A stretch of DNA of 64,000 nucleotides, taken from NCBI GenBank assembly GCA_963771885.1, contig CAVYVF010000002.1, positions 320,001-384,000 of the forward strand, given 5' to 3'. This stretch comes from Candidatus Bathyarchaeota archaeon (lineage in GTDB: Archaea > Thermoproteota > Bathyarchaeia > TCS64). The position numbers are program-made. This document shows, piece by piece, positions 30,001 to 33,000 of this stretch. Every line of letters begins with the position of its first letter. The first letter of the stretch is position 1.

Positions 30001-33000
30001 TGGACGGCTTCTTCAAAGGGGCAGAGGAGGGCGCTTAAGCTGGCAAAGGACGAGGGGATTGACCTGCTCTCAATAGTACCCCAGACCGAGAACACCTACC
30101 TACGCGAACTCATGATAATCATCGAGCACAACGCCTACCACTATGGGAAGATACTCGACATAAGGAAGGGGTTGGGCGACTGGTGATAGCTATTTGACCT
30201 GCGTGCCACACATGTTGCAGAACCGCTGCTCCGGCCTGAGCTGGTTCCTGCACTTGGGGCACGTCGTCTGCTGGTGTACCTGGTGGAGTCCTGTACCGCA
30301 GTTGAGGCAGAACCTATCCTGTGGACCGACAGCCTGCCCGCAGTTGTGGCAAAACTTGCCTCTAGGTGCCGCTTGAGATACAGGCGCAGGAGTTGCGTAC
30401 TTTGGCGCCGGCTGCTGATCGCTTGTTGGCGCCCTCTGCTTCGCCGTGTTTTTAAGTCATCTATCCAGTCTTCAAACCCCTTAAGGCCGGAGAGACACCC
30501 TGCCTGTAGACGTAGCCCTTCTCAGCTCCCGGCGTCTGGGAGTCAATCTGTAGGAGCTTCGCTCCGAGTTCACTCTTCTGACCGACGTTCGTAATGTCCT
30601 GTAAGTGTATCTCGAAGCTATCCGGCCTCTGCAGAGCCTCGTCGATCTGCTCCTTTGGGACTTTTGTGACTGTCCTCATCGCCTCACTGCCGATTATGCC
30701 ACCGAGCAGGCTGCCGGCGACCAGACGCTTGGCGAACTCGCCGCCCGACTGAGCGAAGATGACGCGTTCGTTTGTGAGAAGCAATGTCCCGCCTGGTGGG
30801 TTGAACCTGTACTTCTTTTCCCCCTTCTGGTATAGGTTGATGCCGGACTCGGTCCGGAGCAAAGTCTCTTCGGCGTGCGACATAATCCCGCTTATATAAT
30901 ATGACAGATGTTTCTTTAAATCATTAACCGAGAAACGAAAAACGCCTAAAATTTTCTTCATTATATATAAGAGCACGCTATTTTATGCCCCACCCGAGAC
31001 CGTTAATGTTAAAGACGTTCTAGATGGATCATAGCACGACCCGTCATGAGTATGAAGGATCGCTTCATCGGAAAGGACTTTCTTACCCTAATGGACTACT
31101 CGGCAGTCGAGATCAACTACATGCTCGACGTAGCCCAGCAGCTAAAGTACAAGCGGATGATGAAGGAGCCCCACAACTATCTCGAGGGGCGCACCATCGC
31201 CATGATCTTTGAGAAGAATAGCACCCGCACACGCTTCAGCTTCCAGGCAGGCATCGCCCACCTTGGCATGCAGAGCTTCTACGCGACCCCCGACACTATG
31301 CAGCTGGCGCGTGGCGAGCCCATCAAAGATACGGCGCGCATCCTCGACAGGTACTGCGACGCACTAGTCATCAGGACATACGGTCAGGAGATAGTCGACG
31401 AGTACGCCAAATACATGAAGAACCCTGTCATCAACGCGCTCACCGACCTCGTCCACCCCTGCCAAGGCCTCGCCGACATGCTCACCATACGTGAGCACAA
31501 GGGCAAGATCAAGGGCCTTAAGCTCGCATACGTCGGCGACCCGTGGAACGTCTGCCACAGCCTCATGACATGTAGCAGTCTCCTAGGTATGGACTGCTAC
31601 GTCGCCCTCCCCAAGGGCTGGGCACCCAACCCCAAGATCACCAAGTTCGCCGAGGAGCACGCGAGCATCGGCCACACCCAGATGGTCGTCACAGACGACC
31701 TCGAGGAGGCGCTCAAGGATGCCGACGTCGTCTACGCGAACACATTCCACAGCATGGGGCACAAGGACATCGAGGCAGCGAAGGTCGCCTTCGCCAAGTA
31801 CCAGATCAACGACGAGACCATAAAGTGGGCGAAGCCCGACTCCATCTTCATGCACTGCCTACCCGGCTACCGCGGCGAGGAGATGACCGACTCAGTCATC
31901 GAGGGCTCCCACAGCGTCGTCTTCGACGAAGGCGAGAACAGGATGCACACCGAGAAGGCGGTCCTTGCCCTCTGCGTCGCATAAGCCACACCTTTTCTCT
32001 TTTCACACATTCTCGGGCGCGTTGATGCGCCCCTACACCTCCACCGCCACCGTTATTAGGGAAATCAGAGATGGATAGGCGATGGAACATGCCGAAGGCG
32101 AAGGTTCCTAACCTTATCACAGAGATACCCGGACCAAAGAGCAAGGCTCTCCTCGCTGAGAGGAACGAGTTCGTGCCACCGGGCGTCTACCTCACCCAAC
32201 CCGTCGGAATAGCCGAGTCAAAGGGTGCACTGGTAACAGACGTCGACGGGAACACCCTGATCGACTTCACCAGCGGCATAGGCGTAGTCAGCCTTGGCCA
32301 CTGCAAGCAGGAGATCGTCGACACTATCTGCGACCAGGCAGGTAAGCTCATCCACGGCTGCATACACGTCGTCAACTACGAGCCATACGTCAAGCTCGCC
32401 GAGGCGATGGTCAAGGCCACCCCCGGCAAATACAAGAAGAGGGCAATGTTCGTGAACAGCGGCTCCGAGGCGGTCGAGAACGCGGTAAAGCTCATCCGCC
32501 AGGGCACGAAGAGGCCGAACATCCTCAGCTTCGAGAACAGCTTCCACGGCCGCACATACATGGCTATGACGCTCACTGGCAAGTGGGACCCCTACAAAGT
32601 GGGTCTCGGCCCGTTCGTCCCCGGCGTCTACTTCACCCCCTACGCCTACTGCTACAGGTGTCCGTTCCACTGCGAGTACCCCAGCTGCAGCTACGCCTGC
32701 ATCGAGCACATCGAGCACAACATCTTCAAGACTCAGGTCGACCCAAGCACAGTCGGCGCGATAATCGCAGAGCCGGTGCAGGGTGAGGGAGGCTTCATTG
32801 CCCCGCCGCCGGAATACTTCAAGGAGCTGAAGAAGGTCGCAGACGCGCACGGCATCAAGATGATCATCGACGAGGTCCAGACGGGCTTCGGGCGCACCGG
32901 CAAGATGTGGGCTATCGAGCACTACGGCATCGAGCCCGACATCATGACTATGGCAAAGGCGATCGCCTCGGGTCTCCCCCTCAGTTGCGTCGTCGCAAAG

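What a model noticed while it worked through the whole genome (the two positions that open the first line are those of the whole stretch)
30186..30883. Vps36-GLUE-like PH domain fused to zinc ribbons in an ESCRT-III-only archaeon
g00530 and the 230 bp after it encode (across two indel frameshifts) a ~235-aa protein with an N-terminal PH-like domain whose best sequence-family and structure matches are the GLUE domain of ESCRT-II subunit Vps36/EAP45, followed by a low-complexity linker and three CxxC zinc ribbons. My boldest reading is a membrane- or ubiquitin-like-modifier-binding adaptor of the archaeal ESCRT machinery, a role filled by CdvA elsewhere and missing here. It would be the first ESCRT-II-like module outside Asgard archaea and eukaryotes.
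Evidence so far: Pfam Vps36_ESCRT-II E=6.1e-5, 23.5 bits (cut-off 24.1), residues 4-46. 33 homologous clusters, most 228-245 aa with zinc-ribbon families (PF13240, PF12773...), named ones Bathyarchaeota. AlphaFold2 on a 26-sequence alignment (first sequence the 236-aa homologue P0167, 76% identical): pLDDT 73.7, PH-like core blocks 84-94. Foldseek vs PDB: rank 1-3 yeast Vps36 GLUE 2cay (E=4.6e-6, TMt 0.59) and human EAP45 GLUE 2hth (5e-4); many other PH domains follow at E about 1e-3. Three-frame reading of C2:350031-350900 shows the PH part, the conserved GFEDWI motif and the CxxC ribbons in three successive frames. Invariant basic/aromatic patch K23 K24 F27 N28 P29 P30.
(Added by a program. 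Inside this text positions count along the whole contig: contig position 320,001 is position 1 of the stretch shown here. "Call 12" and the like, gene names such as g00115 and contig names such as C1 are that model's own, and its searches are not shown. The text may have been shortened before it was handed on; [...] marks where a part breaks off. The agent that wrote the report below was given it as the finding of a first reader that could run no searches.)

Follow-up and report, generated by a model that had tools for sequence, protein, structure and literature searches.

The report
Archaeal PH-fold protein with zinc ribbons
This is a real gene for a small archaeal protein with a pleckstrin-homology-type domain and two zinc ribbons, but its likeness to the eukaryotic ESCRT-II protein Vps36 is the weak, generic likeness that prokaryotic domains of this fold are already known to show, and nothing links it to cell-division genes.

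Summary
On the minus strand, 30883 to 30190, three successive frames encode a PH-like domain, a P/Q-rich linker and a double zinc ribbon. There are four CxxC motifs, so two ribbons, not three. Pfam, homologue and Foldseek figures were reproduced.

The two frame breaks are most likely assembly errors. At least five other genes between 25.4 and 38.0 kb, including class I lysyl-tRNA synthetase, are also split across frames, while single ORFs exist in a same-genus genome.

The ESCRT-II reading is not supported:
- The Vps36 Pfam match is below cut-off and covers only the first half of the profile.
- Related Bathyarchaeia proteins, joined by hhalign at 93.6%, best match bacterial PH families.
- Xu et al. 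2010 reported GLUE and GRAM as top matches of bacterial PH domains.
- The protein has no winged-helix core.
- None of the nine related loci and the window has an ESCRT neighbour.
- The family matched in 17 of 301 class genomes and in 1 of 17 other genomes of the CdvA-less genus. Every other genome with a clear copy, except the same-genus one, has CdvA.

Best reading: an uncharacterised branch of the prokaryotic PH superfamily, perhaps a membrane-docking adaptor.

The parts
30497..30883 (-). First reading frame: residues 1-129 of the PH-like domain, holding strands beta1 to beta7. The start ATG is at 30883-30881.
   Evidence: translation and coordinates; homologues 52-79% identical over 66-99% of this piece, leaving out the window's own gene call; fold of a relative.
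30794..30817 (-). Basic and aromatic patch K23 K24 Y25 R26 F27 N28 P29 P30, in the loop before strand beta3.
   Evidence: K23, K24, F27, N28, P29 and P30 are invariant in 32 close homologues. They are not conserved in the distant relatives. The position in the fold comes from the secondary structure.
30668..30736 (-). Glycine-rich hydrophobic insert (residues about 50-72, FAKRLVAGSLLGGIIGSEAM...), lying between beta4 and beta5.
   Evidence: Mean pLDDT of its 10-residue blocks is 48-70. Kyte-Doolittle means for the close homologues are 1.4-1.7 over 15 residues and 1.1-1.5 over 19. The insert is also present in the relatives of the sister genus.
30495..30496 (-). Frame break 1: one base is missing relative to the intact reading (GGT GGT CTC reads as GGTGTCTC).
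   Evidence: The shifted frame gives LSGLKGFEDW, which matches the family consensus.
30453..30494 (-). Second reading frame: LSGLKGFEDWIDDL, which starts the C-terminal helix of the PH fold and holds the conserved Trp.
   Evidence: W140 is nearly invariant. The helix spans residues 144-155 in the model of the relative.
30449..30453 (-). Frame break 2: a run of five A where the same-genus orthologue has three. The break is either two extra A or one missing from a run of six.
30352..30450 (-). Third reading frame, first part: the end of the helix (NTAKQRAP) and the P/Q/A-rich linker.
30295..30351 (-). Zinc ribbon 1 (CHNC ... CLNC).
   Evidence: Zn_Ribbon_1 at E 5.4e-13 and DZR covering residues 35-83 of this piece.
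30205..30261 (-). Zinc ribbon 2 (CPKC ... CNMC). The stop codon is at 30192-30190.

Best explanation
The locus encodes one protein of about 230 residues. It belongs to a small, uncharacterised, archaeal branch of the prokaryotic PH-domain (GRAM/GLUE-like, bPH) superfamily.

Its parts, in order, are:
- A seven-stranded PH sandwich capped by a Trp-bearing C-terminal helix.
- An insert of about 45 residues between beta4 and beta5 that includes a glycine-rich hydrophobic stretch.
- A disordered P/Q-rich linker.
- A double zinc ribbon.

The two frame breaks are most likely indel errors of this assembly, so the gene is probably intact in the cell. The protein is not an ESCRT-II or Vps36 homologue in any functional sense that I could test.

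The most likely mechanism is inferred, not shown. The PH domain would dock on the cytoplasmic face of the membrane through its basic loop and the glycine-rich hydrophobic insert. The flexible linker would then hold out the zinc ribbons to bind a partner protein or nucleic acid. I give the identity statement about 0.8 and the membrane-docking mechanism about 0.35.

For: Zinc ribbons. DZR scores 40.1 bits against a cut-off of 27.3, and Zn_Ribbon_1 has E 5.4e-13.

Family size and forms.
- 33 clusters were found: 20 with two ribbons (228-245 aa), 4 with one ribbon, 7 with the PH domain alone, 1 partial, and the window's own gene call.
- Only 30 representatives reach E <= 0.001 among 1.84 billion proteins.
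- Named members are Bathyarchaeota and Thermoplasmata MAGs.

Link to bacterial PH domains.
- Sister-genus proteins have the zinc ribbon at the N-terminus and carry the same glycine-rich insert. They align to the family at hhalign probability 93.6%, E 2.1e-7, over 119 columns.
- Their best PH-type Pfam matches are bPH_3 (E 9e-4) and bPH_2.
- The nearest ESM Atlas clusters are auto-named GRAM domain proteins. The nearest ones with a Pfam family carry bPH_3 or GRAM, at score 0.87, which is a lead only.

Assembly errors.
- Class I LysRS is read in three successive frames.
- FAA hydrolase, an AP_endonuc_2-type gene and a 136-aa ORF each lie in two frames, while the same-genus genome has single ORFs.
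- The neighbouring 215-aa gene is intact there and split here.

Membrane hint.
- Thermoplasmata relatives carry the domain after a transmembrane helix followed by basic residues.
- JGI named one relative after the YeaQ/YmgE glycine-zipper membrane family.
Against: - No experiment or binding prediction bears on the membrane mechanism.
- The hydrophobic insert is below the usual transmembrane threshold, at 1.1-1.5 over 19 residues. Its model confidence is low.
- The basic patch is conserved only among close relatives.
- The Vps36 Pfam model is the most frequent weak hit of the family, in 28 of 39 members against 11 of 39 for bPH_3. Two other Bathyarchaeia PH-like ORFs reach its cut-off in six-frame search. 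GLUE chains also show the highest sequence identity in the structural alignments, at 19-20%. A specific distant kinship to GLUE is therefore not excluded.
- That the gene is intact is inferred from the error pattern of the assembly. The frame-break sites themselves were not covered by any public run that I laid.
- The structure model is of a relative that is 61% identical, not of the window's own protein.
Confidence: 0.6

Rival explanations
1. One reading: a GLUE-like adaptor that binds membrane or a ubiquitin-like modifier and recruits or serves the ESCRT-III/Vps4 machinery in a lineage that lacks CdvA.
For: - The genome has a Snf7-like ORF and a Vps4_C hit, but CdvA and FtsZ were not found.
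- CdvA was not matched in any of the 70 other genomes of the window's family searched, against 211 of 301 for the class.
- The Vps36 Pfam model is the commonest weak hit, in 28 of 39 members.
- Foldseek ranks 1-3 are GLUE chains.
- Asgard archaea have a putative ESCRT-I protein made of zinc ribbons, a PH domain, a coiled coil and a steadiness box (Makarova et al. 2024, PMC11188069, passages read).
Against: - No ESCRT gene lies in the window or in any of the nine related loci.
- The family matched in only 1 of 17 other genomes of the CdvA-less genus and in 17 of 301 class genomes.
- The other genomes with clear copies (G040, G063, G114, G253, G154, G157, G122) all have CdvA and Vps4_C.
- The four sister-genus genomes whose ribbon-first relatives I read out (G189, G213, G231, G270) have no listed Vps4_C match.
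- The protein has no winged-helix core, and EAP30, Vps25, ubiquitin and E2 families were not found in the genome. For three of those four searches no control genome matched, so those blanks are weak.
- The GLUE match is below cut-off and covers half of the profile.
- VIA-align ranks GLUE 19th and 36th.
- Bacterial PH domains show the same GLUE-first pattern.
Confidence: 0.05
2. A decaying pseudogene: the two frame breaks are real, and the gene is being lost in this lineage.
For: - There are two frame breaks within 50 bases.
- The family is patchy, matched in 1 of 17 other genomes of the genus.
- The orthologue in another MAG (L004) also carries a one-base deletion.
Against: - An essential gene, class I LysRS, and at least four other genes within 13 kb are broken in the same way in this assembly.
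- Break 2 is a length change of an A run.
- Outside the breaks the sequence keeps 77-79% identity to intact homologues in all three frames, with all four CxxC motifs in place.
- In L004 a neighbouring SNF2 helicase is also split, so that MAG looks error-prone too.
Confidence: 0.1
3. A soluble adaptor with no membrane role. The PH domain would bind a peptide or protein by strand addition or through an acidic tail, as pICln, TFIIH p62 or PTB domains do. The zinc ribbons would bind nucleic acid or a second protein.
For: - The ribbon-plus-PH pairing recurs with the ribbon at either end.
- JGI names for members are generic nucleic-acid-binding zinc-ribbon labels.
Against: - It does not account for the conserved glycine-rich hydrophobic insert.
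- It does not account for the fusion of the domain to membrane proteins in Thermoplasmata.
- No partner is suggested by gene neighbourhood, which is conserved only within the genus.
Confidence: 0.25

Closest known systems
Bacterial PH domains (PHb; Pfam bPH_1 PF08000, bPH_2 PF03703, bPH_3 PF14470) and prokaryotic GRAM-like domains
   Same: - The PH fold is the same.
- The sequence motif is the same: a hydrophobic strand ending in T, a turn with R, then a strand of the type (L/I)IFA.
- Relatives of the family give weak bPH_3 and bPH_2 matches.
- Both show GLUE and GRAM as nearest eukaryotic look-alikes (for PHb; here).
   Different: - No member reaches any bPH cut-off. The best is bPH_3 at 20.1 bits against a cut-off of 23.
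- This family has an insert of about 45 residues with a glycine-rich hydrophobic stretch between beta4 and beta5.
- It is often fused to zinc ribbons.
- Ring-shaped oligomers like those of PHb were not shown here.
GLUE domain of ESCRT-II subunit Vps36/EAP45 (Pfam PF11605; PDB 2cay, 2hth, 2dx5)
   Same: - Both have the PH fold.
- GLUE gives the best Foldseek E-values.
- GLUE has the highest identity in the structural alignments, at 19-20%.
- PF11605 is the commonest weak Pfam hit.
- Yeast Vps36 also combines its PH domain with zinc fingers (PMC11188069).
   Different: - The match is below the Pfam cut-off and covers only profile positions 12-52 of 92.
- There is no winged-helix core and no Vps22 or Vps25 partner.
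- The ribbons follow the domain instead of being inserted in it.
- The insert sits between beta4 and beta5.
- There is no ESCRT gene context.
- Lipid and ubiquitin binding were not tested.
Asgard Znr_PH_CC_SB protein (cog.011556), a putative ESCRT-I component (Makarova et al. 2024, PMC11188069)
   Same: Both combine zinc ribbons with a PH domain in an archaeal protein. The authors expect that PH domain to be membrane associated.
   Different: - That protein has three ribbons before the PH domain, then a coiled coil and a steadiness box, and lies in ESCRT loci.
- The protein here ends after its ribbons and lies in no ESCRT locus.
- I had no sequence of the Asgard family, so homology was not tested directly. 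None of the named hits of the profile search was an Asgard protein, and most carry no name.
CdvA (PRC barrel plus CdvA domain, PF18822)
   Different: - The fold is different.
- There is no PF18822 match in this genome.
- The PH family co-occurs with CdvA in seven other genomes instead of replacing it.

Membership tests
Vps36 GLUE domain / ESCRT-II subunit Vps36 | Match to Pfam Vps36_ESCRT-II (PF11605) at or above the gathering score, over most of the profile. | tested here: not met
   The score is 23.5 bits against a cut-off of 24.1, over profile positions 12-52 of 92. 28 of 39 family members match weakly, with a best E of 4.7e-5.
Vps36 GLUE domain / ESCRT-II subunit Vps36 | A C-terminal tandem winged-helix core (EAP30 type) that builds the ESCRT-II complex with Vps22 and Vps25. 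| tested here: not met
   The protein ends in a linker and two zinc ribbons. No EAP30 (PF04157) or Vps25 (PF05871) match was found in the 92%-complete genome. No control genome matched for PF05871, so that blank is weak.
Vps36 GLUE domain / ESCRT-II subunit Vps36 | A structure closer to GLUE than to other PH-like domains. | tested here: inconclusive
Vps36 GLUE domain / ESCRT-II subunit Vps36 | Binding of phosphoinositide and ubiquitin. | not testable with these tools
   No binding assay is available. Ubiquitin and E2 families were not found in the genome, but no control genome matched either.
Vps36 GLUE domain / ESCRT-II subunit Vps36 | Genomic or phyletic association with ESCRT-III and Vps4. 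| tested here: not met
   The window and the nine related loci hold no Snf7, Vps4 or CdvA neighbour. The family matched in 17 of 301 class genomes against 224 of 301 for Vps4_C.
PH-domain-like superfold | Two antiparallel sheets of four and three strands, capped by a C-terminal helix. | tested here: met
PH-domain-like superfold | A conserved Trp in the C-terminal helix. That this is a hallmark is recalled textbook knowledge. | tested here: met
   W140 is nearly invariant in 32 sequences. It is present in at least 90% of the 39 diverse rows.
Bacterial PH domain families (bPH_3 PF14470, bPH_2 PF03703) | A Pfam match at or above the gathering score. | tested here: not met
   Within the 39-row family the best bPH_3 match is E 0.0014, 19.5 bits against a cut-off of 23. 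The window's own piece gives no bPH hit among the two families found at E up to 10. The sister-genus relative reaches E 9e-4, 20.1 bits.
Bacterial PH domain families (bPH_3 PF14470, bPH_2 PF03703) | Profile-level homology to proteins whose best PH-type match is bPH. | tested here: met
   hhalign of A2 against A5 gives probability 93.6%, E 2.1e-7, over 119 columns.
Double zinc ribbon (DZR, PF12773) | Four CxxC motifs forming two ribbons, with a match above cut-off. | tested here: met
   DZR scores 40.1 bits against a cut-off of 27.3, over profile 1-45 of 45. The motifs are CHNC, CLNC, CPKC and CNMC.
Asgard Znr_PH_CC_SB (putative ESCRT-I) | A coiled coil and a steadiness box after the PH domain. 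| tested here: not met
   In the alignment the family's proteins consist of the PH domain, a P/Q-rich linker and ribbons only, and the PH-only forms end after the C-terminal helix. No coiled-coil predictor was run.
CdvA | A match to the CdvA domain (PF18822). | tested here: not met
   No match was found in the genome. The control genome Sulfolobus acidocaldarius did match.

The most novel reading that the evidence does not exclude
The Bathyarchaeia proteins that pair zinc ribbons with a GLUE-like PH domain, in either order, could be surviving relatives of the stock from which eukaryotic Vps36 took its GLUE domain with inserted zinc fingers, and from which Asgard Znr_PH_CC_SB took its front half. 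In the window's genus they could then be the membrane anchor for ESCRT-III. In that genus Vps4_C was matched in 17 of 17 other genomes, CdvA in 0 of 17, and FtsZ or tubulin in 5 of 17 (3 strongly).
Probability: 0.05. Interest if true: 0.8.

Novelty: new member of a known kind. Interest (0 to 1): 0.3.

Why it matters
If the ESCRT reading were true, it would push an ESCRT-II-type module below the Asgard-eukaryote node and would name the missing membrane anchor of a CdvA-less archaeal division system.

The evidence instead shows an unnamed family inside the already known prokaryotic PH-domain radiation. That has three practical uses:
- It warns that sub-threshold Vps36_ESCRT-II hits and GLUE-first Foldseek lists are a generic signature of prokaryotic PH domains, not a sign of ESCRT-II.
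- It defines a small archaeal family worth a Pfam entry, marked by a glycine-rich insert and zinc ribbons fused at either end.
- It leaves open what recruits ESCRT-III in this genus.

Tried and rejected
- Reads over the frame breaks. I listed runs (no listed holder is on record as RNA) and laid contigs of four runs. They covered only 30570-30936, so the break sites were not covered.
- Pattern scan of metagenome contigs across break 2. It gave no match.
- Profile of the PH part against PDB sequences. No PH-type chain appeared at E up to 10. The wider profile A3 found only zinc-ribbon chains.
- Search for longer fused forms of 274-2000 aa. None scored, which is weak evidence. The representative search did find proteins of 314, 456 and 685 aa.
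- Homodimer prediction of the PH domain. The verdict was 'no answer', with scores 0.00 and 0.00.
- NCBIfam scan. Nothing informative turned up.
- Pfam on the two pieces of the neighbouring gene. There were no hits, so my 'DinB-like' label for it rests on recall only.
- A correction of my own. I first took a 194-aa ORF in L001 for the neighbour's intact orthologue (noted). Searches showed it to be a spurious antisense ORF over the ribbon region. The real orthologue is the 215-aa ORF at L001 589-1236.
- Programmed ribosomal frameshifting. I considered it for the A run and rejected it, because the same kind of break affects unrelated genes nearby, LysRS among them.
- Earlier findings of this scan. 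A look-up by sequence and one by the word 'frameshift' returned nothing.
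Full report
**What is in the sequence**

The finding sits on the minus strand. Three-frame translation gives three pieces.
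- Frame A runs from the ATG at 30883 to about 30497 and gives residues 1-129 (MSHAEETLLRTESG ... YRQG). It then runs out of frame to a stop at 30463-30461.
- Frame B runs from about 30494 to 30453 and gives LSGLKGFEDWIDDL.
- Frame C runs from 30450 to 30193. It gives NTAKQRAP, a P/Q/A-rich linker and FCHNCG...FCLNCG...CPKC...FCNMCG, with the stop at 30192-30190.

The C-terminal piece matches Zn_Ribbon_1 at E 5.4e-13. It also matches the whole DZR profile at 40.1 bits against a cut-off of 27.3.

Vps36_ESCRT-II scores E 6.1e-5 and 23.5 bits against a cut-off of 24.1, over residues 4-46 and profile positions 12-52 of 92.

**The breaks are probably assembly errors**

Aligned to the same-genus orthologue (G165, locus L024), the window lacks one base near 30495-30496. 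Restoring the frame there gives QGGLSGLKGFEDW, which is the family consensus. The window also has a run of five A at 30449-30453 where the orthologue has three.

The same kind of damage is spread over the neighbourhood.
- Class I lysyl-tRNA synthetase lies in three successive frames between about 36.3 and 38.0 kb.
- FAA hydrolase, an AP_endonuc_2-type gene and a 136-aa ORF each lie in two frames in the window, while G165 has single ORFs.
- The gene next door is one 215-aa ORF in G165 and is split in the window.
- Five other syntenic genes are intact: acyl-CoA dehydrogenase, saccharopine dehydrogenase, Rpb6, the class III aminotransferase and ornithine carbamoyltransferase.

An essential synthetase broken twice argues for indel errors rather than decay. 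I could not confirm this with reads. The contigs of the four runs I laid covered only 30570-30936, and a pattern scan of metagenome contigs found nothing.

**The family**

The word-indexed search found 33 clusters among 79 candidates:
- 20 of 228-245 aa with two ribbons;
- 4 of 183-225 aa with one ribbon;
- 7 of 141-156 aa with the PH part alone;
- 1 partial;
- the window's own gene call.

The ribbons are therefore an optional addition to a conserved PH core that ends in the GF(D/E)xW helix.

A profile of the PH part, run over 1.84 billion representatives, found only 30 proteins at E <= 0.001. They include a tandem duplicate of the domain, forms with the ribbon at the N-terminus, and Thermoplasmata membrane proteins that carry the domain after a transmembrane helix.

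In whole genomes the profile matched 17 of 301 genomes of the class. The clear matches were the window's genome, 1 of 17 other genomes of its genus, 2 genomes of another family, 4 of a third family, and 1 more at E 4e-7.

**Fold**

An AlphaFold2 model of the PH-only relative P0022 used a 39-row alignment. P0022 is 61% identical to the window's piece. The model reached pLDDT 81.8 and pTM 0.79.

It shows four strands, then an insert of about 45 residues with three short helices, then three strands and a long C-terminal helix. The first part of the insert is the glycine-rich hydrophobic stretch, where block pLDDT is 48-70.

- Foldseek against the PDB again put yeast Vps36 GLUE (2cay_B at E 9.8e-6 and TMt 0.64; 2cay_A at 7.0e-5) and human EAP45 GLUE (2hth_B at 4.2e-4) first. 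Lam6, KETc7, BBS5 and MTMR2 followed at 6e-4 to 2e-3.
- Realigning Foldseek's top 997 chains put 2cay_A 36th and 2hth_B 44th.
- GLUE chains do have the highest sequence identity in these lists, at 19-20%.

**Is the GLUE signal specific?**

It is consistent but weak. 28 of 39 family members give a sub-threshold Vps36_ESCRT-II hit, and 11 of 39 give a bPH_3 hit. Other Bathyarchaeia PH-like ORFs do the same. In a six-frame search of 151 class genomes, 5 matched at E <= 0.001 and 2 reached the cut-off. In every case only the first half of the profile was covered. None of the 14 control genomes matched.

Three points argue against a special link.
- Proteins of the sister genus have an N-terminal ribbon, a P/Q linker and a PH-like domain with the same glycine-rich insert. 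They are homologous to the family by hhalign (probability 93.6%, E 2.1e-7, 119 columns). Their best PH-type Pfam hits are bPH_3 and bPH_2, not Vps36.
- The nearest ESM Atlas clusters are archaeal and auto-named 'GRAM domain-containing protein' (scores 0.94-0.95). The nearest clusters with a Pfam family carry bPH_3 or GRAM, at 0.87, which is a lead only.

'Best match GLUE' is thus the known default for prokaryotic PH domains.

**ESCRT context**

What makes Vps36 an ESCRT-II subunit is its winged-helix core, and this protein has none. EAP30 and Vps25 families were not found in the genome. Ubiquitin and E2 families were not found either. For three of these four searches no control genome matched, so those blanks are weak.

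I scanned 140 ORFs from the window and nine related loci. No Snf7, Vps4 or CdvA gene lies near the family in any of them. Gene order is kept only within the genus: ornithine carbamoyltransferase, this gene, the 215-aa gene, acyl-CoA dehydrogenase.

- The genome has a Snf7-like ORF at 23.1 bits, below cut-off, as is also the case for the Sulfolobus control.
- It has a Vps4_C hit.
- CdvA and FtsZ were not found.
- CdvA was matched in 0 of 70 other genomes of the family, against 211 of 301 for the class.

But the PH family does not fill that gap.
- It was matched in only 1 of 17 other genomes of the genus.
- The other genomes with clear copies (G040, G063, G114, G253, G154, G157, G122) all have CdvA and Vps4_C.
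- The four sister-genus genomes whose ribbon-first relatives I read out (G189, G213, G231, G270) have no listed Vps4_C match. That genus has FtsZ or tubulin matches in 31 of 32 genomes.

The genome also holds at least three further PH-like paralogues, two of them with an N-terminal ribbon.

**What it most likely does**

- Shown: a PH-fold domain, a conserved insert with a moderately hydrophobic glycine-rich stretch, a disordered linker and two zinc ribbons. For the close homologues the Kyte-Doolittle means of that stretch are 1.4-1.7 over 15 residues and 1.1-1.5 over 19.
- Shown: the ribbon-plus-PH pairing recurs in both orders.
- Inferred: the domain docks on the cytoplasmic membrane face through the basic KKYR loop and the insert, and holds out the ribbons to a partner.

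The hints for a membrane role are indirect. Thermoplasmata relatives fuse the domain behind a transmembrane helix. JGI named one relative after the YeaQ/YmgE glycine-zipper family. A soluble protein-binding role is nearly as likely. A homodimer prediction gave no answer.

**Comparison with Asgard and novelty**

Makarova et al. 2024 (PMC11188069; passages read) describe an Asgard protein with three ribbons, a PH domain, a coiled coil and a steadiness box as a likely ESCRT-I part. The protein here shares only the ribbon-plus-PH pairing and has no room for the other two parts.

Hatano et al. 2022 (PMC9192718; passages read) found no Vps36 in Asgard archaea and place its origin in eukaryogenesis. 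Where GLUE came from is therefore open. A prokaryotic ribbon-plus-PH stock is a possible source, but an untested one.

My searches of the paper library for GLUE or Vps36 together with Bathyarchaeota or Bathyarchaeia found no report of this family. I did not read the supplements of these papers.

**Verdict**

This is a real, probably intact gene of an unnamed archaeal family inside the known prokaryotic PH radiation. The ESCRT-II reading is not supported.

Noticed in passing
whole genome and relatives (G000; genera g1 and g2 of family f1): The cell-division toolkit seems to switch within one Bathyarchaeia family.
- In the window's genus, Vps4_C was matched in 17 of 17 other genomes, CdvA in 0 of 17, and FtsZ or tubulin in 5 of 17 (3 strongly). 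G000 itself has no FtsZ or tubulin match.
- In the sister genus, FtsZ or tubulin was matched in 31 of 32 genomes, Vps4_C in 3 of 32 (all weakly) and CdvA in 0 of 32.
- Elsewhere in the class CdvA is common, in 211 of 301 genomes.
What recruits ESCRT-III in the window's genus is open.
   Followed up: partly
window 36250-38000 (+): Class I lysyl-tRNA synthetase is encoded in three successive frames, so it has two frame breaks. This is a sign that the assembly carries many indel errors.
   Followed up: partly
window 25413-26539, 29724-30186, 33477-34299, 34822-35206: FAA hydrolase, the 215-aa neighbour gene, an AP_endonuc_2-type gene and a 136-aa ORF are each split between two frames here. Each is a single ORF in the same-genus genome G165.
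   Followed up: partly
G000:C2:283440-283892 (L034 909-1556, minus), G000:C1 (L035 835-1524), G000:C23 (L036 33-548, minus): The same genome holds three more PH-like paralogues carrying the T..R.IFA motif. Two have an N-terminal zinc ribbon, and all have a helical insert in place of the glycine-rich one.
   Followed up: partly
L004 8001-8449 and 5225-7751: The orthologue in another Bathyarchaeota MAG also has a one-base deletion, after KKY. The SNF2-family helicase upstream of it is split into pieces of 727 and 124 aa, so that MAG looks error-prone as well.
   Followed up: partly
window 30194-30594 (+): Long ORFs of 60 and 106 aa lie antisense to the ribbon and linker region. A 194-aa ORF does the same in L001. 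They look like artefacts of the G+C-rich, repetitive coding strand, and one of them misled me at first.
   Followed up: yes
window 30884-30976 (-): A TTATATAA element lies about 9-17 bases upstream of the ATG at 30883, which is closer than an archaeal TATA box usually lies to a start codon. The stored gene call P0001 starts eight codons further in, at a TTG. The residues MSH.EET are conserved in homologues, which favours the ATG.
   Followed up: no
proteins P0036, P0057, P0060: P0036 is a tandem duplicate of the PH-like domain (314 aa). P0057 and P0060 are Thermoplasmata membrane proteins of 456 and 685 aa with the domain at the C-terminus, behind a transmembrane helix and a proline-rich linker.
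   Followed up: no
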